From an uncultured Planctomycetales bacterium (GTDB lineage: Bacteria > Omnitrophota > Gorgyraeia > Gygaellales > Profunditerraquicolaceae), in contig CAYNRN010000003.1 of NCBI GenBank assembly GCA_964399915.1, positions 2,064 through 66,063 on the forward strand: a DNA stretch of 64,000 nt, written 5' to 3'. Of the stretch, positions 56,442 to 64,000 are shown one piece after another. The notes below the pieces were generated by a model. It saw nothing but the letters and a program-made list of their open reading frames with translations, made no database searches and was not told the origin of the DNA. The number at the start of each line of letters is the position of its first letter. The stretch's first letter is position 1. The position numbers and the translations under genes are program-made.

Positions 56442-56493
56442 TTTCTTCTTGACAGGGCAGCCAAATTATAGTATTTTATTGTATCTTTTACTT

Positions 56494-56545
56494 TTCAGGA
56501 AATATCGTATCTTTACGATCTAAATCCCTCCTGAAATCGTATTCC
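56494..56545 (+). promoter_or_regulatory. Direct repeat GGAAATATCGTAT / TGAAAT-CGTAT plus ATCGTA-N4-TACGAT palindrome between a TTGACA promoter (56449) and the hydrogenase operon start
   Basis: tcaGGAAATATCGTATctttACGATctaaatccctccTGAAATCGTATtcc. Confidence 0.4.
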
Positions 56546-56555
56546 CTTTTAAGAA

Positions 56556-57602
56556 ATGCTCAAAACTTATTATTGCGAATCCGCCCAACTCAAGACTTTC
56601 TATAACCTCTTAATAAAGAGTTTCCGCGTATTTTCGCCCGCCCCCAAAGAGTCCGTAAAAGGAGAAAAAGATTATTATTACCGCTTGGCCTCAGGCGAAG
56701 AGGAGCTTGTCTTTAACCCCTACAGGGTAGTTGAGCCGCTGAAATCGTTTTTTACCGCCCCCTTAGAAAAAGTAACGGATTATTTTACCCCCCAGGAAGA
56801 TGCCTCCCGGATAAATGAGAGAACAATCATCTTCGGGGTAAAGAGCTGCGATCTCCACGGCCATAAAATCCAGGATTATGTTTTTCTTGAAGGCGTGGAG
56901 GTAGATTCTTTATACGCCTTACGCAGGGAAAACACAATCCTCATCTCTTCCGATTGCACAGATTATAAGCAAGTCTGCCATTGCCTTGCCTGGTCGGTAA
57001 TGCCTTATCCCACGGAGGGATTTGATCTAAACCTAAGCCCCCTCAACGACGGATTCCTGGTTGATCTGGGTAGCTCCAAAGGGGAAGAGCTAATTGAGAA
57101 ATATAAAGAATTCTTTATGCTTGCTAAAGACAGCCAGATAGCCGCGCGCAAGGTCAAGCGACAGAATCTGGTAGAATGCCTCAAGAGGCACCTTTTGCCT
57201 CAAGGCCTGGTGGCGCAGGATAAAGCCCAGGAGGTCGTACGTTCGGGCTTTAGTTCCGAGACATGGAAAAAGTTTATGCTTACCTGCGTTGAGTGCGGAG
57301 GGTGTAACCTGATTTGCGACACCTGCCATTGTTTTCTGCTTGGCGACGCAAAGGCAGGCAATATAAACAAGAAGCTCAGGGTTTGGGATTCGTGTCTTTA
57401 CGCTAATTATGCCCGGGTTGCAGGAGGCGCAAACCCATTAAAAACCAGGGCGCAGCGTTTAAGGAACCGCTTTATCAAGAAGTTTGATTTTTTCGTGGAT
57501 AATATGGGTATTCCTGCCTGTTGCGGATGCGGCAGGTGTATCGAAGTCTGCCCGGGCAAGATCGATATCAGGGAAGTTTTGAAGGATTTAGCCAAGAAAT
57601 GA
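56556..57602 (+). CDS. Fe-S subunit resembling anaerobic sulfite reductase AsrA / sulfhydrogenase beta (HydB)
   Basis: Cys clusters CVECGGCNLICDTCHCF and CCGCGRCIEVCP. 348 aa, matching AsrA/HydB size. Confidence 0.6.
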   Translation: MLKTYYCESAQLKTFYNLLIKSFRVFSPAPKESVKGEKDYYYRLASGEEELVFNPYRVVEPLKSFFTAPLEKVTDYFTPQEDASRINERTIIFGVKSCDLHGHKIQDYVFLEGVEVDSLYALRRENTILISSDCTDYKQVCHCLAWSVMPYPTEGFDLNLSPLNDGFLVDLGSSKGEELIEKYKEFFMLAKDSQIAARKVKRQNLVECLKRHLLPQGLVAQDKAQEVVRSGFSSETWKKFMLTCVECGGCNLICDTCHCFLLGDAKAGNINKKLRVWDSCLYANYARVAGGANPLKTRAQRLRNRFIKKFDFFVDNMGIPACCGCGRCIEVCPGKIDIREVLKDLAKK

Positions 57603-57603
57603 A

Positions 57604-57649
57604 CCCTGTTACAAATATGTAGCGGGGGAAGGAAGGATTTGTAACGGGG
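57604..57649. repeat. Inverted repeat CCCTGTTACAAAT-N20-ATTTGTAACGGGG, copy 2 (1 mismatch between arms), ending at the start codon of the next gene
   Basis: Same arm sequence and exact 20-nt spacer as 3537-3582. Confidence 0.8.
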
Positions 57650-58464
57650 TGAAAAATATCTACCGGCCGATAGAGGGGACAATCGAAGAGATCATTGTCG
57701 AATCGCCGACAATAAAGACCTTCGTGATCAGGCCGAAGGAGGGTTTTTCCTTCAGGACCGGCCAGTTCGTAGAACTTACGCTCCCCGGCTTAGGCGAAGC
57801 GCCGTTTACCCCTTCGTCCGATCCCAATATCAAGGATAAGATTGATGTGACAATCATGAAGGCCGGGCATGTCACCTCGCTATTACACGCTGCCTCAAAG
57901 AATATCTCAGTAGGAATCCGCGGGCCCTACGGTAAGGGCTATCCTCTGGAGAGTTTCCAGGGTAAGGACATCTTAATCGTAGGCGGCGGAGTGGGGTTAG
58001 CGCCCCTGCGCTCTCTATTATTCAGCCTGTTTGCTACTATCGACCTTTATAATAAGGTAGTGCTGCGTTATGGTTCACGTTCGCCTGCGGATATAATCTA
58101 TAAAGGGGCTATCCCGCAATGGGGCAAAATGAAGAAAGTGGATGTGGTTACCTCGGTTGATGTGGGTTCGCCCGAATGGAAGGGGAACGTCGGTTTGGTC
58201 ACCACGATTTTAAACGACCTGCCGGTAGACCTAAAAAAAGCGGTAGCGATAGTCTGCGGCCCGCCGATTATGATGAAATTCGTGACCTTGAAGTTACTGG
58301 ATGTAGGTTTTAAGCCGAAGGATATATATCTTTCTATGGAGAAGAGTATGTCCTGCGGATTAGGTAAGTGCGGCCACTGCCGTATTGGCAAATATTACAT
58401 CTGTAAAGACGGCCCGGTGTTTACTTACGAGCAGTTGAAGGATGTGCACGATATCTGGGATTGA
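57649..58464 (+). CDS. FAD/NAD(P)H-binding [2Fe-2S] subunit resembling AsrB / sulfhydrogenase gamma (HydG) / PyrK
   Basis: FNR-like N-terminus (TGQFVEL), NAD-binding ILIVGGGVGLAPL, C-terminal CGLGKCGHCRIGKYYICKDGPVF 2Fe-2S motif. GTG start. Confidence 0.65.
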   Translation: MKNIYRPIEGTIEEIIVESPTIKTFVIRPKEGFSFRTGQFVELTLPGLGEAPFTPSSDPNIKDKIDVTIMKAGHVTSLLHAASKNISVGIRGPYGKGYPLESFQGKDILIVGGGVGLAPLRSLLFSLFATIDLYNKVVLRYGSRSPADIIYKGAIPQWGKMKKVDVVTSVDVGSPEWKGNVGLVTTILNDLPVDLKKAVAIVCGPPIMMKFVTLKLLDVGFKPKDIYLSMEKSMSCGLGKCGHCRIGKYYICKDGPVFTYEQLKDVHDIWD

Positions 58465-58958
58465 TGAAAAGACTATTCGTTGACCTCGACGTCTGTAACA
58501 GTTGTAAAGAATGCGTGGTACTTTGCGATTATTTTTACCATCCGCAGAACAACGGCATTGCTTCGCTTCGGGAATATGCCACCTTTGCGACGATTTGCCG
58601 CCATTGCGACGAGGCGCCCTGCGTCAACGCCTGCTATCATAATGCCCTGGAGCGAGCCGCAGACGGACACCTTAAGAGGTATAAGATGCGTTGCACCAGC
58701 TGTAAGGCCTGCAGCCTGGCTTGTCCGTTCGGTATAATCTTCCAAGATTTCATACCTTATCTTGACTCGCGCTGCGATTATTGCATAGGTTCAAAAGGCA
58801 GGCTTCCTAAATGCGTAACCAGCTGTACGCACAAAGCGGTTGAAATAAGGGAAGTAGAAGAGAGCTTAGAGAATAATATCTTTTTTGTGGGAGAACATCT
58901 GGCAGTACATTCGCGTAAGTGGTTGCGCGAAGATCTACAGCTGCCCAGAAAGAAGTAG
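58461..58958 (+). CDS. Poly-[4Fe-4S] ferredoxin (EchF/HycB/NuoI-like)
   Basis: Motifs CNSCKECVVLC, CRHCDEAPCVNAC, CTSCKACSLACP plus an extra CDYC...C..C cluster. Confidence 0.65.
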   Translation: MMKRLFVDLDVCNSCKECVVLCDYFYHPQNNGIASLREYATFATICRHCDEAPCVNACYHNALERAADGHLKRYKMRCTSCKACSLACPFGIIFQDFIPYLDSRCDYCIGSKGRLPKCVTSCTHKAVEIREVEESLENNIFFVGEHLAVHSRKWLREDLQLPRKK

Positions 58959-59023
58959 CCAGGGATGAGTAGTGGGTATTGAGGGCGGCCCTAACCCCTC
59001 ACTACTGGCTACTCACTACTAAC

Positions 59024-59938
59024 ATGTTGAAATCATTTTTTTATTATTTTATATTTCCCGGTTTCCTCTTTGCCGCCTCTGTCGGCTTAATCGCCGGCTG
59101 GGTTGACAGAAAGGTCACCGCGCGGCTGCAGTGGCGTAAAGGCCCGCCATGGCATCAGAATTTTACTGATATTGTCAAGTTAATAGGCAAGGAAGTAATC
59201 GTGCCTGCCAACGGCAGGTGGGTATTTTTACTTGCCCCTTTTATCGGGTTACTGGCTGCTTCTCTTGTGGCTGCGCTAGTCGGGGTCTCTATAATTCATC
59301 CTCAGCAGAGTTTTGTCGGAGACTTGATCGTAGTGCTCTACCTTTTAACCATTCCGGCGATATCCATGATTATTGCCGCCTCGAGCTGCGGTAATCCGCT
59401 TGCTTCCGTAGGCGCTTCCCGGGAGATAAAGCTAGTCTTAGGATATGAATTACCTTTTATAATTTCTATAGTGGCGATGGCCATTAAATCATCCGGCGCC
59501 ATCCAGCTGGGTTCAATTCTTAATATCCAGGCTGCTTATGGTTCAAACATAGCCTCCTGGTCGGGATTCTTCGCCTTTATAGTTGTCATTTTCTGTATTC
59601 AGGCGAAACTTGGGTTTGTCCCCTTTGACGCTTCCGAGGCGGAGCAGGAGATTGTCGGAGGCGTTTTGATAGACTATTCCGGAGTACTGCTTGCGTTATT
59701 CAAGCTTACCAAGGCAGTGCTTCTATATACGCTGCCGCTCTTTATGATAATACTTTTCATGGGTAAAGATTTGAGCCTGTTGTTTCTGGCGCTTAAATAT
59801 ACGGGTATACTGGTAATCATTATCCTGATAAAAAATACCAATCCCCGATTGCGCATTGATCAGGCAATGAGGTTTTTCTGGGGGCCGGTAACGCTATTAG
59901 CGATAGCAGCATTAATACTGGCGTCAATTGGACTATAA
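59024..59938 (+). CDS. Membrane subunit of group-4 hydrogenase (NuoH/EchB/HycD family)
   Basis: NuoH-like pattern (RKVTARLQWRKGPP). 8 TM helices. Start taken at ATG 59024 (MLKSFFYY...); the ORF track extends to 58979 through an intergenic palindrome. Confidence 0.7.
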   Translation: MLKSFFYYFIFPGFLFAASVGLIAGWVDRKVTARLQWRKGPPWHQNFTDIVKLIGKEVIVPANGRWVFLLAPFIGLLAASLVAALVGVSIIHPQQSFVGDLIVVLYLLTIPAISMIIAASSCGNPLASVGASREIKLVLGYELPFIISIVAMAIKSSGAIQLGSILNIQAAYGSNIASWSGFFAFIVVIFCIQAKLGFVPFDASEAEQEIVGGVLIDYSGVLLALFKLTKAVLLYTLPLFMIILFMGKDLSLLFLALKYTGILVIIILIKNTNPRLRIDQAMRFFWGPVTLLAIAALILASIGL

Positions 59939-60010
59939 TATATAACCGCAGGTCAAGGTTAAGGTTGGGGTCGAGAAATAAAACCTAGACCTTGACCTAG
60001 GCCTTAGAAT

Positions 60011-60433
60011 ATGAATCTTACATCAAAAGCACTAACCAAATCAATCGGGGTATTCCACGCGGCCTGCTCTCCGTGCAATAACTGCGATATCGAGATACTG
60101 GATGCGCTCACCCCGAAACACGACCTTGAGCGGTTTGGGATTACCCTTGTGGGCAGCGCCCGCCATGCAGATGTGCTTTTAGTTACCGGTGTGCCGAACT
60201 ATAAAACCGCCGAGAGGCTGAAAAAACTTTATTTACAGACCGCAAAGCCGTGTCTGGTAGTTGCCGTCGGAGGCTGTGCCTGCGGGAGGATCATGTTCAG
60301 GGATTCATACAATAGCCCCTGCGCTGTTGACGAAATCGTGCCGGTAGACCTTTACATACCGGGTTGTCCGCCGAAGCCGGAGGCGTTGATTGCCGGAGTA
60401 GTGAAGTTACTCGCCAAGCTTAGAGGAAAATAA
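60011..60433 (+). CDS. [NiFe] hydrogenase small subunit (NuoB/EchC/HycG family)
   Basis: Proximal-cluster Cys (CSPCNNC, GGCACG, IPGCPPKPE). 140 aa. Confidence 0.75.
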   Translation: MNLTSKALTKSIGVFHAACSPCNNCDIEILDALTPKHDLERFGITLVGSARHADVLLVTGVPNYKTAERLKKLYLQTAKPCLVVAVGGCACGRIMFRDSYNSPCAVDEIVPVDLYIPGCPPKPEALIAGVVKLLAKLRGK

Positions 60434-60435
60434 AT

Positions 60436-60867
60436 ATGCAGGAAACAGTAGCGAAATTCCGGGAAAAATTCAGCAATCAGGTTATAAAGTCGCAAGAGAA
60501 ATCAACCCGCAGGCAGTATATAGAATTTTTACCACCGGATATTCCGGAGGCAGCGCGTTTTTTGTTCAAAGACCTCAATTGCCGTTTTGCCACTGCCAGC
60601 GGCATCGATACCCCCGAAGGAATAGAAATATTGTATCATTTCTCCGATGACCATACCGGAGAGGTGATCAGTCTGCGCACTATACTTACCGATAAAAAGG
60701 ACCCTCAGATACATTCCATCGCGACAATATTTCCGGCAGCGGAATGGATAGAGAGGGAAATCTGGGAATTGTTGGGAGTAAAATTTATCGGCCATCCCAA
60801 TTTGAAGCACCTGCTTTTAATTGACGATTGGCCGGAAGGAAAACACCCTTTGAGGAAGAAAGAATGA
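60436..60867 (+). CDS. NuoC/EchD-like hydrogenase subunit
   Basis: 143-aa NuoC-fold protein (IEILYHFSDDH...EREIWELLGVKFIGHPNL). Confidence 0.65.
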   Translation: MQETVAKFREKFSNQVIKSQEKSTRRQYIEFLPPDIPEAARFLFKDLNCRFATASGIDTPEGIEILYHFSDDHTGEVISLRTILTDKKDPQIHSIATIFPAAEWIEREIWELLGVKFIGHPNLKHLLLIDDWPEGKHPLRKKE

Positions 60868-62069
60868 GCCATAAAGTCATCGTACCCATAGGCCCGTACC
60901 ACCCTTTGCAGGAAGAGCCGGAATTTTTCCGCCTTTATGTGGAAGGGGAGAAGGTAGTTGATATTGATATCGTAATCGGATATATGCACCGCGGGATAGA
61001 GGAGCTTTCTGAGCATAAACACTTTGATCAGGTAGCTTTTTTAGTAGAGCGTATCTGCGGGATCTGTTCTTCGAGCCACCCCTATGCCTTTGTACTGGCA
61101 GTGGAAGATATTTTAGGAGGAGAGAGGAATGTCGTTCCGGAAAGGGCACTCTACATCCGCACCATAGTAGATGAGATGCAGCGTATCCACAGCCACCTGC
61201 TTTGGCTTGGGCTTGCGGGCCATTTTATCGGTTATAACACGGTATGGATGTGGGCATGGAAATACCGCGAGCCGCTGTTAGAGTGTTTTGAAGCGATCTG
61301 CGGCAACCGCAACCACTATGCGATGAGTAAGATCGGAGGCGTGCGCCGCGACATAGGAGAAGCGCATATACCGGTACTTGAAAAGACCTTAGATGAATTA
61401 AGCAGGGCAAGTGATATGTTCAAGGGCGCTGTGATGGATGACCCGGTGATTCAGGCGCGGCTTAAAGGCGTGGGGGTATTGACGCATAAGCAGGCAATTG
61501 ACTGGGGTACCGTAGGCCCTACTGCAAGGGCTTCCGGCGTAAACATCGACGTGCGCAGGGATGATCCTTACGGTGTTTACGACAGGGTAAGCTGGAATGT
61601 AATTTTACAGAAGGAAGGGGATGTCTTTGCCAAGACCATAGTCCGGATACTGGAGCTTTACGAATCGATCAGCATTATCCGCCAGTGCCTTAAAAAGATG
61701 CCTGCCGGAGCGATTGACGCCGATATTAAAGATATCCCTGCGGGAGAGGGGATAGGCAGGGTAGAGGCTCCGCGCGGAGAGTGCTTCCACTATATCAGGA
61801 GCGACGGCACAAACCGCCCGCTCAGGCATAAGATACGCGCCCCCAGCTACATGAACGTTGCTTCTAATAAAGTAGCGGCAATAGGCCAGACTATTTCCGA
61901 CACTACGATTACCTTAGCGGCAGTCGATCCCTGTTATTGCTGTACTGAGCGTGTAGCGGTATTGGATAAAGTCAACGATAAGAAGATCATGAACGGATGG
62001 GACCTGATTAAATTATCGCAAGGCAAGACAAAGCAGGTCCGGGAGAGCTTAAGTGCAAAACCTGAATAA
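60864..62069 (+). CDS. [NiFe] hydrogenase large subunit, group-4 type (EchE/NuoD-like)
   Basis: N-terminal Ni-Fe ligand motif RICGICSSSH (RxCGxCxxxH) and C-terminal DPCYCCTER (DPCxxCxxR). Start at ATG 60864 (RBS GAGGAAG, overlaps the upstream stop as ATGA); the ORF track's longer start is 60828. Confidence 0.8.
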   Translation: MSHKVIVPIGPYHPLQEEPEFFRLYVEGEKVVDIDIVIGYMHRGIEELSEHKHFDQVAFLVERICGICSSSHPYAFVLAVEDILGGERNVVPERALYIRTIVDEMQRIHSHLLWLGLAGHFIGYNTVWMWAWKYREPLLECFEAICGNRNHYAMSKIGGVRRDIGEAHIPVLEKTLDELSRASDMFKGAVMDDPVIQARLKGVGVLTHKQAIDWGTVGPTARASGVNIDVRRDDPYGVYDRVSWNVILQKEGDVFAKTIVRILELYESISIIRQCLKKMPAGAIDADIKDIPAGEGIGRVEAPRGECFHYIRSDGTNRPLRHKIRAPSYMNVASNKVAAIGQTISDTTITLAAVDPCYCCTERVAVLDKVNDKKIMNGWDLIKLSQGKTKQVRESLSAKPE

Positions 62070-62670
62070 TATAAAATCAGAGATTGTCGGCATGGCAAAG
62101 ATCGCGCTGGAGATGTGGAGGATAACCTTTCAATCCTTCATGGAGCATGACCCGGAACTCTTCCCGCAGATTACCGAAAGGGAGAATAAGCTCAATGACC
62201 TGGAAAAGAGCCTGACTCAGCAGCTGGTGGAACTGAGCAAGGCCACAAAGGATAAGGCCGAAAAAGAAAATATCGCGCTTTTTACGGGAATAGTCGGCGA
62301 TATTGAGCTGATCGGAGATTACTGCAAGGATATCCTTGAACGGATAGAGATCAAGGTTCAGGAAAAGCTGCTCTTTAGCGAAGACGCAGTAGCCGAATAT
62401 AAAGAATTGTACCAGAAAACAGCGGATGCCCTTGAGGAAGTAGTGCGTGCGCTTGAAAAGGGGCGCCTTACTTTGGCAAAAGAGATAGTCAGGGAATCCG
62501 CGGATATAGAGCGGCTCGTCGAACATTACCGTAAGCATCATAATCAGAGGCTGCTTGAAGGTATCTGCAGTCCGTTTGCCTGTAATATGTTTTTAAACAT
62601 GATAGATTTTACCGCGGCTATCTACTTCCATACTAAGAAGATAGCAGAGAATTTGACCAGGATAAAATAA
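62053..62670 (+). CDS. PhoU-domain-like protein embedded in the hydrogenase operon
   Basis: 205-aa all-helical protein with PhoU-like repeats (…DIELIGDYCKDILERI…). Overlaps the large-subunit 3' end by 17 nt. Confidence 0.4.
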   Translation: MQNLNNIKSEIVGMAKIALEMWRITFQSFMEHDPELFPQITERENKLNDLEKSLTQQLVELSKATKDKAEKENIALFTGIVGDIELIGDYCKDILERIEIKVQEKLLFSEDAVAEYKELYQKTADALEEVVRALEKGRLTLAKEIVRESADIERLVEHYRKHHNQRLLEGICSPFACNMFLNMIDFTAAIYFHTKKIAENLTRIK

Positions 62671-64000
62671 TGAATTATATGTTTTCGGCTATAGCGATTC
62701 CGCTTCTGGGGGCTTTTCTGATTATCCTGCTGCCCGGGAGGATTAAGGCTTATGCTTCGGTATCGGCTTTAGGTTTGAGCTGTTTTTTCAGCGTGCTTGC
62801 CGCCGTAAGCGTGCTTAAGCTAAAGGTATTCGTTTCCGAAAGATACATCACAGACTGGCTGAGCATATCTTTTGCCGCAGACGGTACGGCGGTTTTCATG
62901 GCGATAGTTTCATCGTTTGTAGCGTTTTTAATCTCTCTCTATTCCCTGGAGTACATGAAGGATTACGAAAACAGGGGAGAGTTCTATTTCTGGATGGTTT
63001 TATTCGTAGGCTCGATGATGGGGTTGATCTTCAGCGCCAACCTTATGCTCTTATACTGTTTCTGGGAGATTACCGCAGTCTGTTCTTGGAGGCTGATCGG
63101 GTTCTACAGGAAAGAAAAGGACCTTAAAGCGGCAGACAGGGCGTTTATGATTACCTTTTTCGGGGCATCGCTTTTGCTGGTGGGGATAGTTTTAACTTAC
63201 CTTAATTATTCAAGCACCGACATGTTTTTCTTAAGAGATAAGGCGCTGGTGAATACGGTCGCCTTTTTATTTTTAGCGGGGATAATCTCTAAGTCAGCGC
63301 AATTGCCGCTGCAGACCTGGCTTCCCGATGCCGGTGTCGCCCCGACGCCGGTTACCGCGCTTTTACACGCTGCAGTCCTGGTCAAAATCGGGGTTTATGT
63401 CTTTGCCCGGCTTTTTAACCTCACCTTTATTGCCTCTCCTTTATTTATGAACACCGCAATTTTTATCTCGGTATCCACGATAATCGTGGCAGGGGCTTGT
63501 GCCTTGATAGAGAATAATCTGAAAAAAATCCTGGCGTATTCTACGATCAGCCAGCTGGGCTATATCCTGCTTGCTTTGTCTTTAAACTCGGCGCTTTCCC
63601 TTAAGATCGCCCTGCTTTATATCCTGGCGCATTCTTTAGCTAAAGCCGGGCTGTTTCTTTGCGCCGGCATAGTTGAACACGAAAGCGGCACTAAGGATAT
63701 CAACGAGCTGGGAGGCCTGGCTAAGACCATGCCCCTTACTGCAACAGCCTTTCTTTTATCGGCTTTTTCTATCGTCGGAATCCCTCCTTTTTTAGGATTT
63801 TGGCCGAAGTTTATGGTAGTGGTTACGGCGCTGACAACCGGACATGCCATCGCCGGCGTATTTGCGATAATCGGGGCGCTCTTTACGCTGCTCTATCTTT
63901 TTAGGTTATTTGATAAGGTATTTTTAGGCGGTCAAAAGATCAGCGCCCGTGAAGGCAAAAACTCATTGATGGTATTAGTGGTGATGATTCTTGGCGTCCT
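62670..64000 (+). CDS. NuoL/NuoM/MrpD-family antiporter-like membrane subunit (EchA-like); 3' partial, runs off the window
   Basis: ATG 62670 overlaps the upstream TAA (TAATG). Motifs WLPDAGVAPTPVTALLHAAVLVKIGVY and ILAYSTISQLGYI are typical of NuoL/M/N. Not in the ORF track because no stop falls inside the window. Confidence 0.75.
   Translation, partial: MNYMFSAIAIPLLGAFLIILLPGRIKAYASVSALGLSCFFSVLAAVSVLKLKVFVSERYITDWLSISFAADGTAVFMAIVSSFVAFLISLYSLEYMKDYENRGEFYFWMVLFVGSMMGLIFSANLMLLYCFWEITAVCSWRLIGFYRKEKDLKAADRAFMITFFGASLLLVGIVLTYLNYSSTDMFFLRDKALVNTVAFLFLAGIISKSAQLPLQTWLPDAGVAPTPVTALLHAAVLVKIGVYVFARLFNLTFIASPLFMNTAIFISVSTIIVAGACALIENNLKKILAYSTISQLGYILLALSLNSALSLKIALLYILAHSLAKAGLFLCAGIVEHESGTKDINELGGLAKTMPLTATAFLLSAFSIVGIPPFLGFWPKFMVVVTALTTGHAIAGVFAIIGALFTLLYLFRLFDKVFLGGQKISAREGKNSLMVLVVMILGV

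What the first reader, a model, noticed from the sequence alone, without database searches (positions are those of the whole stretch)
56449..64000. Chimeric operon: sulfhydrogenase-type NAD(P)H module (AsrA/HydB-like + AsrB/HydG-like) fused to an Ech-type membrane-bound group-4 [NiFe] hydrogenase
The sequence shows nine co-directional, tightly packed genes behind one promoter-like region. They are an AsrA/HydB-like Fe-S protein (56556-57602), an AsrB/HydG-like FAD/NAD(P)H-binding 2Fe-2S protein, a poly-ferredoxin, a NuoH-like membrane subunit, a NuoB-like small subunit, a NuoC-like subunit, a large subunit with both Ni-Fe ligand motifs (RICGICSSSH, DPCYCCTER), a PhoU-like protein, and a NuoL/M-like antiporter subunit. 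From established knowledge, AsrAB/HydBG-like diaphorase subunits are hallmarks of cytoplasmic group 3b sulfhydrogenases. EchABCDEF-like subunits define ferredoxin-coupled, ion-translocating group 4 hydrogenases. My inference is that combining them in one operon suggests an NAD(P)H-linked, membrane-bound energy-converting hydrogenase, possibly coupling NAD(P)H oxidation or H2-driven NAD(P)+ reduction to ion translocation. That arrangement is not one of the canonical group-4 architectures (FHL, Coo, Mbh, Ech, Eha/Ehb). The operon is truncated by the window end and no hyp maturation genes are visible here.
Basis: partly seen in the sequence, partly recalled or inferred. Interest (0 to 1): 0.85.

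Follow-up and report, generated by a model that had tools for sequence, protein, structure and literature searches.

The report
Hun-type membrane hydrogenase operon of Omnitrophota
The genes are real and do join a sulfhydrogenase-like flavin/iron-sulfur module to a membrane-bound nickel-iron hydrogenase, but this operon type was already described in 2021 as the "Hun" complex, is common in uncultured anaerobes, and has never been tested biochemically.

Summary
All nine genes are present as described, and every domain call holds. A second assembly of the same contig shows that the operon continues beyond the window to 18 genes. These include a full Mrp antiporter module and a NuoI-like ferredoxin, so it is an Mrp/Mbh-type complex, not Ech-type.

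The arrangement is not a one-off. All 62 related genomes with enough upstream DNA have the same AsrA-like, AsrB-like, 4x[4Fe-4S], NuoH, NuoB, NuoC, large-subunit order, with near-zero gaps between genes.

The large subunit carries the CGIC...CYCC signature that Glass et al. (bioRxiv 10.1101/536078) gave for HunG of the 16-subunit "Hun" complex. They reported it in Atribacteria, Omnitrophica, Elusimicrobia and Kosmotoga. Relatives are classed HydDB group 4g. Other papers (2019, 2020, 2026) noted the same module on Mrp-linked group-4 hydrogenases.

The FAD, NAD(P)H and 2Fe-2S motifs of the AsrB-like subunit are conserved in 71 orthologues.

One feature looks unreported. This Omnitrophota subclade inserts a PhoU-fold gene and a third antiporter-like gene after the large subunit.

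The parts
56449..56477 (+). Promoter-like site TTGACA-17-TATTTT, about 80 nt upstream of hunA
   Evidence: This is a consensus match only; the number of such sites in the region does not exceed shuffled sequence.
56556..57602 (+). hunA: Fe-S protein like AsrA and sulfhydrogenase beta (348 aa, 15 invariant Cys)
   Evidence: - Pfam Fer4_22 2e-27.
- NCBIfam ShyB 9e-55, below the equivalog cut-off.
- PDB 9NEZ_B 3.8e-39.
- Invariant Cys in 66 orthologues.
57603..57650 (+). Intergenic hairpin: 14-bp stem and 20-nt purine-rich loop. The GTG start of hunB lies in the 3' arm.
   Evidence: - Fold energy -18.7 kcal/mol, z -3.3.
- No U tail; not reported as terminator-like.
- Absent from most orthologous loci, where A and B overlap by 4 nt.
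57649..58464 (+). hunB: flavoprotein like AsrB and sulfhydrogenase gamma, with FAD, NAD(P)H and 2Fe-2S motifs (271 aa)
   Evidence: - Pfam NAD_binding_1, DHODB_Fe-S_bind and FAD_binding_6.
- AsrB model 5e-64, below cut-off.
- 9NEZ_C 1.1e-50.
- GEAPFTPSS, RGPYG, GGGVGLAPLRS, YG[AS]R, CGPPIMMKF and CGLGKCGHC are conserved in 71 orthologues.
58464..58958 (+). hunC: HydN/CooF-like ferredoxin with 16 Cys (four [4Fe-4S] motifs)
   Evidence: Pfam Fer4_11 2.5e-11; HydN/DmsB/NrfC-type hits; 16 conserved Cys.
58979..59938 (+). hunD: NuoH/MbhM-like membrane subunit
   Evidence: Pfam NADHdh 5.6e-59.
60011..60433 (+). hunE: NuoB-like hydrogenase small subunit with four invariant Cys
   Evidence: Pfam Oxidored_q6 1.7e-25; Cys22, 25, 89 and 119 invariant in 80 sequences.
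60436..60867 (+). hunF: NuoC-like subunit
   Evidence: Pfam Complex1_30kDa 2.1e-27.
60864..62069 (+). hunG: [NiFe] large subunit with L1 RICGICSSSH, L2 DPCYCCTER and a C-terminal extension of about 38 aa
   Evidence: - Pfam hits.
- MbhL 6CFW_L 2.3e-85, ahead of HycE 1e-71.
- C65, C68, C357 and C360 invariant; C359 conserved in 94% of 84 sequences.
- The CGIC...CYCC motif is the HunG signature.
62053..62670 (+). PhoU-fold gene. It is an accessory absent from the canonical 16-gene hun operon. It overlaps hunG by 17 nt and the next gene by 1 nt.
   Evidence: - Pfam PhoU 4e-20.
- AF2 model pLDDT 92; Foldseek TM 0.91 to PhoU 4Q25.
- Present in 24 of 67 related loci.
- Family of about 205-aa proteins; every named one of the best 120 hits is Omnitrophota or plain 'bacterium'.
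62670..64000 (+). NuoL-like antiporter subunit 'y' (463 aa in full, cut by the window end). It is a third antiporter-like paralogue not present in canonical hun.
   Evidence: - Pfam Proton_antipo_M 1.4e-68.
- Full length in L001.
- About 30% identity to the other two antiporter-like subunits.
- Present in 14 of 67 loci.

Best explanation
**What it is.** This is the 5' half of an 18-gene hun operon of a Candidatus Omnitrophota bacterium. It is a Mrp-linked, Mbh-like group-4 [NiFe] hydrogenase. Relatives are classed HydDB 4g.

**Proposed electron path (inferred).**
- The electron-input arm is a module like sulfhydrogenase beta/gamma.
- NAD(P)H binds the FAD subunit HunB.
- Electrons then pass through the HunB 2Fe-2S cluster and the [4Fe-4S] clusters of HunA.
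- They continue through the four-cluster ferredoxin HunC and the NuoI-like HunP, which is encoded beyond the window.
- They reach the small subunit HunE and finally the Ni-Fe site of HunG, where protons and H2 interconvert.

**Proposed coupling (inferred).**
- That reaction is coupled, as in Mbh, to ion movement through HunD, the antiporter-like subunits and the Mrp-like module.
- NAD(P)H to H2 is uphill above about 100 Pa H2, so the enzyme most likely runs near equilibrium and reversibly.
- At very low H2 it would make H2 from NAD(P)H with a small ion yield.
- At higher H2 it would either reduce NAD(P)+ while pumping, or use the ion gradient to push H2 out.

**Shown:** gene content, order, conservation, cofactor motifs and homologies.
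**Inferred:** the electron path, NAD(P)H as the partner, reversibility and ion coupling.
For: - **Full operon.** It was read on the same contig in another assembly.
- **Conserved order.** A-B-C-D-E-F-G is kept in all 62 related loci with enough upstream DNA, from Omnitrophota, Elusimicrobiota/Endomicrobia, Clostridia, Nitrospirota, Margulisiibacteriota, Verrucomicrobiota and Auribacterota. Median intergenic distances are at most 6 nt.
- **Canonical form.** A 58%-identical large subunit sits in the 16-gene hun operon, followed by hycI and hypFCD.
- **Signature.** CGIC...CYCC matches the published Hun description.
- **Homology of the input module.** The best solved homologues of HunA and HunB are the beta and gamma subunits of P. 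furiosus sulfhydrogenase I. A 2026 paper says that these two subunits carry out NADPH oxidation in that enzyme.
- **Motif conservation.** The glycine-rich NAD(P)H motif, the CGPP motif, a conserved Arg after the second strand, the FAD motifs and the 2Fe-2S cysteines are conserved at 80-100% across 71 HunB orthologues.
- **Fe-S cysteines.** All cysteines of HunA, C, E and P are invariant or nearly so.
- **Specific association.**
  - The next clade out (46% identity) also carries A, B and C.
  - More distant group-4 clusters do not.
- **Thermodynamics.**
Against: - No biochemical or expression data exist for any Hun complex.
- The authors who named Hun proposed ferredoxin, not NAD(P)H, as the donor. 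HunC or HunP could accept ferredoxin directly, as MbhN does.
- NAD(P)H to H2 cannot drive ion pumping unless H2 is below roughly 10 Pa. An elaborate Mrp module with three antiporter-like subunits is therefore hard to justify energetically in the H2-evolving direction.
- Motif conservation shows that a nucleotide and flavin site is under selection. It does not show which nucleotide binds or in which direction electrons flow.
- HunA and HunB score below the equivalog cut-offs of every curated model.
- I could not model the electron path between subunits.
Confidence: 0.55

Rival explanations
1. Hun is a ferredoxin-dependent, H2-evolving, Na+/H+-translocating Mbh-type hydrogenase. HunABC only collect electrons from reduced ferredoxin. 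This is the published Hun model and the default HydDB 4g assumption.
For: - It is the interpretation.
- Energetically it is the only direction that pumps ions at ordinary H2 levels.
- The Mrp module and the MbhL-like large subunit resemble ferredoxin-dependent Mbh.
- Ferredoxin-producing, Rnf-containing fermenters carry the operon.
Against: - It gives no role to a strictly conserved FAD/NAD(P)H-binding flavoprotein.
- Mbh needs no such module.
- The closest characterised homologues of HunAB are the two P. furiosus sulfhydrogenase I subunits that a 2026 paper describes as carrying out NADPH oxidation.
- The premise that AsrAB take electrons from ferredoxin is itself doubtful. From my own knowledge of the Salmonella Asr literature, AsrB is regarded as the NADH-linked flavoprotein.
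Confidence: 0.25
2. Hun has three redox partners: ferredoxin, NAD(P)H and H2. It either confurcates electrons onto protons or distributes ferredoxin electrons between H+ and NAD(P)+. This resembles the branched wiring proposed in 2026 for group-4b clusters that carry SHI-beta/gamma plus an Fdh-like subunit.
For: - proposes bifurcation/confurcation for related clusters.
- HunC has four clusters and HunP has four extra conserved Cys, which leaves room for a branch.
- A few distant hun operons insert a truncated molybdopterin-like protein between hunB and hunC.
Against: - The window operon and about 59 of 62 relatives lack the Fdh-like subunit.
- No second flavin site or known bifurcating module (HydABC, NfnB, HdrA, EtfAB type) is present.
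- Uncoupled electron flow from ferredoxin to NAD(P)+ would duplicate Rnf.
Confidence: 0.13
3. The AsrAB-like module serves sulfur chemistry, either sulfite or polysulfide reduction with H2, or sulfhydrogenase-like S0 reduction, rather than nucleotide turnover.
For: Gene 2 scores best against the AsrB model. Gene 1 scores against sulfhydrogenase beta, the subunit historically linked to S0 reduction.
Against: - No AsrC or siroheme subunit is present in the operon or its relatives.
- Scores are below the Asr equivalog cut-offs.
- The intact Ni-Fe ligands point to H2 chemistry.
Confidence: 0.04
4. hunAB and the hydrogenase genes are merely neighbours, transcribed and used separately.
For: A 46-nt gap with a strong hairpin lies between hunA and hunB in the window. 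A promoter-like hit lies at 59912-59939.
Against: - The linkage holds in all 62 loci with enough upstream DNA, across several phyla, and most neighbouring genes overlap by 4 nt.
- The hairpin lacks a U tail and leaves no room for a promoter.
- Promoter-like hits are no more frequent than in shuffled sequence.
Confidence: 0.03

Closest known systems
Hun 'supercomplex' (Glass et al., bioRxiv 10.1101/536078; hunA-P in Atribacteria, Omnitrophica, Elusimicrobia, Bacteroidetes MAGs and Kosmotoga)
   Same: - Same gene order: AsrA-like, AsrB-like, Fe-S protein, NuoH, NuoB, NuoC, large subunit, antiporter/Mrp module, NuoI-like.
- Same CGIC...CYCC large-subunit signature.
- Same phylum listed.
   Different: - The window operon has 18 genes rather than 16. 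A PhoU-fold gene and a third antiporter-like gene are inserted after the large subunit.
- The published model names ferredoxin as donor. The motif evidence here favours NAD(P)H.
Pyrococcus furiosus membrane-bound hydrogenase Mbh (group 4d, PDB 6CFW)
   Same: - It is the best solved match of the large subunit (2.3e-85).
- It shares NuoH, NuoB, NuoC, NuoD and NuoI-like core subunits plus Mrp-like MbhD/E, MnhB, C, E, F and G homologues.
   Different: - Gene order differs.
- Mbh has no HunA, B or C subunits and takes electrons directly from ferredoxin.
- About 50 clusters of 50% identity score closer to HunG than MbhL's score would rank.
Pyrococcus furiosus sulfhydrogenase I, beta and gamma subunits (group 3b, PDB 9NEZ)
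   Same: - HunA and HunB align over nearly their whole length with beta and gamma.
- The Cys motifs and the flavin and nucleotide motifs are shared.
   Different: - The hydrogenase subunits are group 4, not group 3. The ShyA model scores only about 40 bits.
- This complex is membrane-bound.
- HunA and HunB fall far below the ShyB/ShyC/HydB/HydG equivalog cut-offs.
Group-4b Mrp-linked clusters with an Fdh-like subunit plus SHI-beta/gamma homologues (Front Microbiol 2026, PMC13582414), and the Saganbacteria 'Mrp-Mbh' cluster with asrA, asrB, cooF and a molybdopterin protein (PMC6349859)
   Same: SHI-beta/gamma (AsrAB-like) and CooF-like subunits are attached to a Mrp-linked group-4 hydrogenase.
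   Different: The window operon and nearly all its close relatives have no molybdopterin or Fdh-like gene. Only two distant loci do.
Ech hydrogenase (group 4e)
   Same: Shares the NuoH, NuoB, NuoC, NuoD and NuoI-like core and one NuoL-like subunit.
   Different: - Ech has six subunits and no Mrp module.
- Here there are 18 genes with a full Mrp-like set.
- Rare short hun forms (A-G, PhoU, H, P) do look Ech-sized, but the window's operon is not one of them.
Respiratory complex I (NuoA-N)
   Same: - The overall logic is the same: a nucleotide-oxidising flavoprotein arm, an Fe-S wire, a NuoB/C/D/H/I core and, in this variant, three antiporter-like subunits.
- The analogy of the AsrAB-like pair to NuoE/F was already drawn.
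   Different: - The input module is not homologous to NuoEFG.
- The NuoD homologue keeps its Ni-Fe ligands, so the acceptor is H+ rather than quinone.

Membership tests
Hun complex (Glass et al. 2021) | AsrA-like and AsrB-like genes (hunAB) followed by an Fe-S gene (hunC) directly upstream of the hydrogenase core | tested here: met
   The same order is found in all 62 relatives with enough upstream DNA.
Hun complex (Glass et al. 2021) | Large subunit HunG with metal-site motifs CGIC...CYCC | tested here: met
   RICGICSSSH and DPCYCCTER; the third Cys of CYCC is conserved in 94% of 84 sequences.
Hun complex (Glass et al. 2021) | Sixteen genes hunA-P, including the Mrp-like module and a terminal NuoI-like ferredoxin | tested here: met
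   All 16 have counterparts on the full contig L001. Two extra genes (PhoU-fold and a third antiporter-like gene) are inserted.
HydDB [NiFe] group 4g | Assignment of the large subunit by the HydDB classifier | not testable with these tools
   - HydDB is not available here.
- The L091 relative (Ca. Tritonobacter lacicola, 65% identity, same gene set A-P with hunC and hunD in swapped order) was classed 4g, as were Omnitrophota hydrogenases.
- Group 4g is polyphyletic.
Ech-type hydrogenase (group 4e) | Six-subunit complex with a single antiporter-like subunit and no Mrp module | tested here: not met
   There are 18 genes, with three antiporter-like subunits and MbhD/E, MnhB, C, E, F and G homologues.
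Mbh (group 4d, ferredoxin-coupled, Mrp-linked) | Mrp-like module plus a NuoB/C/D/H/I core | tested here: met
Mbh (group 4d, ferredoxin-coupled, Mrp-linked) | No dedicated electron-input subunits; ferredoxin is the direct donor | tested here: not met
   HunA, B and C are present and conserved. The donor itself is not testable here.
Group 3b sulfhydrogenase (SHI/SHII) | Beta and gamma subunits reaching the NCBIfam equivalog scores | tested here: not met
   ShyB 186 bits against a cut-off of 690; ShyC 180 against 600; HydB 152 against 750; HydG 173 against 650. They are homologous but not orthologous.
Group 3b sulfhydrogenase (SHI/SHII) | Group-3 type large and small subunits (alpha, delta) | tested here: not met
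   The large subunit matches the NuoD, MbhL and HycE types. ShyA scores about 40 bits.
Anaerobic sulfite reductase AsrABC | AsrC siroheme catalytic subunit, and AsrA and AsrB above the TIGR cut-offs | tested here: not met
   No AsrC-like gene is in the operon. TIGR02910 scores 121.6 against 323; TIGR02911 scores 215.8 against 288.6.
Group-4b Fdh-like + SHI-beta/gamma clusters (2026) | Molybdopterin (Fdh-like) subunit in the cluster | tested here: not met
   None is present in the window or L001. It occurs only in L088 and L093 among 62 relatives.
PhoU (phosphate signalling protein) | Two-repeat six-helix PhoU fold | tested here: met
   pLDDT 92; TM 0.91 and rmsd 1.8 Å to 4Q25.
PhoU (phosphate signalling protein) | Equivalog score and a pst/pho genomic context | tested here: not met
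   TIGR02135 scores 50 bits against a cut-off of 130. The gene is embedded in hun operons.

The most novel reading that the evidence does not exclude
Hun may be a hydrogenase-based counterpart of complex I. In this reading it is a reversible, ion-translocating NAD(P)H:H+ oxidoreductase whose nucleotide-input arm was recruited from a sulfhydrogenase-type beta/gamma pair rather than from NuoEFG. In one Omnitrophota subclade it would have been enlarged to three antiporter-like subunits and gained a PhoU-fold subunit. That subunit would regulate or gate ion flow, a job for PhoU outside phosphate transport.
Probability: 0.3. Interest if true: 0.7.

Novelty: new member of a known kind. Interest (0 to 1): 0.38.

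Why it matters
**Distribution.**
- Hun-type operons are widespread in uncultured anaerobes of sediments and groundwater.
- At least 584 stretches in the species-representative genomes encode a relative of the large subunit.

**Open question.**
- Metabolic reconstructions routinely book them as ferredoxin-dependent H2 producers.
- If the conserved flavoprotein arm really uses NAD(P)H, those energy budgets are wrong.
- The enzyme would then be the first membrane-bound, ion-coupled link between the pyridine-nucleotide pool and H2. It would work only at the very low H2 levels kept by syntrophic partners.
- That would bear on how ultra-small, partner-dependent Omnitrophota make a living, and on how complex I acquired its input module.

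**What this window adds.** It adds little new. Its main value is to point to an enzyme that has been described but never tested.

Tried and rejected
- **Terminator idea.** The scan reports nothing at 57604-57649. The hairpin has no U tail and includes the hunB start codon. Rejected.
- **Ech-type label.** Rejected once the full contig was read.
- **Fdh-like or AsrC-like partner genes.** None in the window or in L001.
- **hyp and hycI genes.**
  - None in the window parts I annotated (about 4.8-42 kb and 46.4-64 kb) or directly downstream. The first 4.8 kb and 42-46.4 kb were not annotated.
  - They do follow hunP in a relative.
- **Rfam scan of 55.9-64 kb.** Only a chance miRNA hit.
- **Leader repeats at 56477-56536.** Too short to interpret.
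- **Contexts of the representatives P0241, P0245 and P0246.** The contigs are too short to be informative.
- **Xiao et al. 2025 (SHI structure paper).** Not held, so the cofactor content of SHI beta/gamma rests on the 2026 paper's summary and on the alignments.
- **Follow-up work.** Literature searches found no follow-up on Hun and no PhoU in hydrogenase clusters.
- **Phylogeny.** The neighbour-joining tree has no support values and serves only as a rough guide.
- **Not available.** HydDB and multimer structure prediction.

Full report
**Observation**

The window holds nine co-directional ORFs between 56556 and its end.
- a Fer4_22 protein of the AsrA / sulfhydrogenase-beta type;
- an FNR-fold flavoprotein with a C-terminal 2Fe-2S motif of the AsrB / sulfhydrogenase-gamma / PyrK type;
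- a HydN/CooF-like ferredoxin with 16 Cys;
- NuoH-, NuoB- and NuoC-like subunits;
- a NuoD-type [NiFe] large subunit with RICGICSSSH and DPCYCCTER;
- a PhoU-domain protein;
- a NuoL-like subunit that runs off the window.

The first two proteins match the curated ShyB/HydB/AsrA and AsrB/ShyC/HydG models over their full length (E 1e-35 to 1e-64). They stay below the equivalog cut-offs. They are therefore homologues, not orthologues, of any characterised protein. Their best solved relatives are the beta and gamma subunits of P. furiosus sulfhydrogenase I (9NEZ).

A promoter-like TTGACA-17-TATTTT precedes the first gene. That scan is no richer than shuffled sequence, so the match is weak evidence.

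**The whole operon**

The same contig exists in a JGI assembly with a constant coordinate offset of 50863. There the operon continues for nine more genes:
- the rest of the 463-aa NuoL-like gene;
- a 629-aa antiporter-like gene;
- MbhD/E, MnhB, NuoK/MnhC, MnhD, MnhE, MnhF and MnhG homologues;
- a 198-aa NuoI-like ferredoxin.

An MFS transporter follows. No hyp genes follow, and I found no clear terminator. The complex is thus Mrp-linked and Mbh-like, not Ech-like. MbhL (6CFW) is the best solved match of the large subunit, ahead of HycE and complex I NuoD.

**Organism and distribution**

- More than 100 large-subunit relatives at 79-91% identity are nearly all labelled Candidatus Omnitrophota. 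The AsrA-like protein has a parallel set at 64-72%, often on contigs of identical length.
- The annotated parts of the window carry housekeeping genes and an anaerobe-type oxidative-stress cluster.
- A scan of one genome per species found at least 584 stretches encoding a relative. The best 80 loci come from several groups: Omnitrophota, Elusimicrobiota/Endomicrobia, Clostridia, Nitrospirota, Margulisiibacteriota, Verrucomicrobiota and Auribacterota.

**Synteny**

I called ORFs in all loci and matched them to the 18 reference proteins.
- All 62 loci with at least 4.6 kb upstream of the large subunit have both the AsrA-like and the AsrB-like gene.
- The order A-B-C-D-E-F-G is kept in 61 of those 62 loci. 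In L091 hunC and hunD are swapped.
- Median intergenic distances are at most 6 nt throughout. The A-B junction has a median overlap of 4 nt.

The 46-nt hairpin between the first two genes of the window (-18.7 kcal/mol) is lineage-specific and has no U tail. It contains the GTG start of the second gene, so there is no room for a separate promoter.

**Clade**

- An exhaustive search of 50%-identity representatives shows a gap. Two representatives lie at 58-59% identity, and after them nothing full-length exceeds 49%.
- The 58% representative sits in a 16-gene operon with the same order, followed by hycI and hypFCD.
- The next clade out (46%) still has A, B, C and the core, but no antiporter subunits. 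It lies next to rnf.
- Two further group-4 representatives have no AsrAB-like genes.
- A rough neighbour-joining tree agrees with this nesting.

**What is already known**

- Glass et al. (bioRxiv 10.1101/536078) described exactly this operon as the 16-subunit 'Hun' complex.
  - HunAB are AsrAB-like and HunC is an Fe-S protein.
  - HunG is a HydDB group-4g large subunit that is distant from other 4g sequences and marked by CGIC...CYCC.
  - HunH-O form the proton and Mrp modules, and HunP completes the hydrogenase module.
  - They list Atribacteria, Omnitrophica, Elusimicrobia, Bacteroidetes and Kosmotoga, and they note an occasional molybdopterin protein between HunB and HunC.
- Matheus Carnevali et al. 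2019 reported asrA-, asrB- and cooF-like genes on a Mrp-Mbh-type hydrogenase of Saganbacteria. Its nearest relatives were in Zixibacteria and Omnitrophica. They compared the genes with nuoE/F.
- Méheust et al. called it the 'Mbh-Mrp-oxidoreductase type'.
- Williams et al. and Seymour et al. list group-4g, Mrp-linked hydrogenases in Omnitrophota and Auribacterota. One of those genomes is my locus L091.
- A 2026 paper links SHI-beta/gamma homologues plus an Fdh-like protein to group-4b clusters and proposes NADPH involvement.
- I found no biochemical study.

The architecture is therefore real but not new.

**Mechanism**

Evidence bearing on NAD(P)H:
- The published Hun model has ferredoxin feeding HunABC.
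- The sequence evidence leans the other way.
  - Across 71 HunB orthologues, the FAD motifs (GEAPFTPSS, RGPYG) are conserved at 80-100%.
  - So are the glycine-rich nucleotide motif (GGGVGLAPLRS), the conserved Arg in YG[AS]R, the CGPPIMMKF motif and the 2Fe-2S cysteines.
  - All of these align with the sulfhydrogenase I gamma subunit.
- A 2026 paper describes the beta and gamma subunits of that enzyme as its NADPH-oxidising part.
- HunA keeps 15 invariant Cys, HunC 16, HunE 4, and HunP 8 plus 4. This is enough for an Fe-S wire from the flavin to the Ni-Fe site.
- By analogy with formate hydrogenlyase, HunC would play the HycB part and HunP the HycF part. The HunAB pair would take the place of the formate dehydrogenase. 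This analogy rests on established knowledge of that enzyme.

Thermodynamics limit the model. With E0' of -320 mV for NAD(P)H, H2 evolution becomes exergonic only below about 100 Pa H2. It yields about -10 kJ/mol at 1 Pa.

The enzyme is thus best seen as reversible and near equilibrium:
- H2 evolution from NAD(P)H at syntrophic H2 levels;
- NAD(P)+ reduction with ion pumping at high H2;
- or gradient-driven H2 release.

I put this at about 0.55. I give the pure ferredoxin model 0.25 and a three-partner model 0.13.

**What may be new**

The window's operon has two genes that the canonical 16-gene form lacks, both placed between the large subunit and the first antiporter-like gene.

The first is a 205-aa PhoU-domain protein.
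- It overlaps both of its neighbours.
- It models with high confidence (pLDDT 92) as a full two-repeat PhoU fold (TM 0.91 to 4Q25).
- It belongs to a family of about 205-aa proteins that pipelines label 'Na/Pi cotransporter family'. Every named one of the best 120 hits is Omnitrophota or plain 'bacterium'. Many lie on contigs whose lengths match those of large-subunit hits.
- It has 35 invariant positions, including an ExxxD motif.

The second is a third antiporter-like paralogue, about 30% identical to the other two.

Counts and coverage:
- Of the 67 loci with at least 2.5 kb of downstream DNA, 24 have the PhoU gene, 14 have the extra antiporter gene and 8 have both.
- Short forms lacking the Mrp genes (A-G, PhoU, H, P) also exist.
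- None of the papers I could read mentions PhoU, but I could not see their figures.

**Verdict**

The operon is a conserved chimeric unit and NAD(P)H linkage is plausible.
- It is partly wrong. The complex is not Ech-type and the architecture is not undescribed.
- This is a further member of the known but uncharacterised Hun / group-4g family, carrying two accessory genes that deserve a note.

Noticed in passing
window 62053-62670 (and L014, L018, L021, L022, L025 and others): A PhoU-fold gene sits inside the hydrogenase operon. It overlaps both neighbours, is strongly conserved, and appears confined to hun operons of one Omnitrophota subclade (24 of 67 loci). Its role is unknown. It may regulate or gate the ion-translocating subunits.
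   Followed up: partly
window 62670-64000; L001 11807-13198: A third antiporter-like subunit (463 aa, about 30% identical to the other two) gives this variant three such subunits, as in complex I. It is present in 14 of 67 loci, including four Endomicrobia loci that lack PhoU.
   Followed up: partly
L028, L037, L042 (and L051 with the extra antiporter gene): Short hun operons go straight from one antiporter-like gene to the NuoI-like gene, with no Mrp genes (A-G, PhoU, H, P). They are an Ech-sized version of the same complex.
   Followed up: no
L094 5808-12011: A sister clade (large subunit 46% identical, motifs CGLC / DPCTGCAER) has AsrA-like, AsrB-like, Fer4_11, NuoH, NuoB, NuoC, large subunit and NuoI-like genes but no antiporter-like subunit at all. 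It lies a few kb downstream of rnf genes.
   Followed up: no
L088 5522-7018; L093 4847-6553: Truncated molybdopterin-oxidoreductase-like ORFs (498 and 568 aa, with no Pfam hit to the C-terminal molybdopterin-binding domain) are inserted between hunB and hunC in two distant loci (one Margulisiibacteriota, one labelled only 'uncultured bacterium'). This matches the occasional insert noted in the literature.
   Followed up: partly
L078 7505-7885 (ORFs of similar size at the same place in L075, L080, L081); L088 7499-8188 and L089: Other lineages insert different small genes between hunC and hunD: a CBS-pair protein in Endomicrobia, and a protein of about 225 aa that looks TPR-like by eye in Margulisiibacteriota. 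Different clades seem to have added different putative regulators to the same core.
   Followed up: partly
window 57603-57650: A 14-bp hairpin between hunA and hunB has a purine-rich loop that carries the likely ribosome-binding site. The GTG start lies in the stem. Unrelated palindromes occupy the same junction in a few other loci (L034, L060, L063, L064, L066).
   Followed up: partly
window about 30.8-36.9 kb: An oxidative-stress gene cluster typical of anaerobes: Rrf2 regulator, Fe-S protein, rubredoxin, FNR-like reductase, flavodiiron protein, desulfoferrodoxin, rubrerythrin, glutaredoxin and a thioredoxin-reductase-like protein.
   Followed up: no
window about 38.9-43.1 kb: Trehalose synthesis genes (trehalose-6-phosphate synthase, trehalose phosphatase and a TreT-like glycosyltransferase) lie next to a diadenylate cyclase gene.
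   Followed up: no
L056, L073, L082 upstream of hunA: A second, more distant AsrA-like gene (with an AsrB-like gene beside it in L056 only) lies a few kb upstream of the hun operon in three loci. I did not examine it.
   Followed up: no
window 56477-56536: The leader upstream of hunA contains a 12-nt direct repeat (TAT[TC]GTATCTTT, 26 nt apart) and an 8-nt inverted repeat. Both are too short to judge.
   Followed up: no
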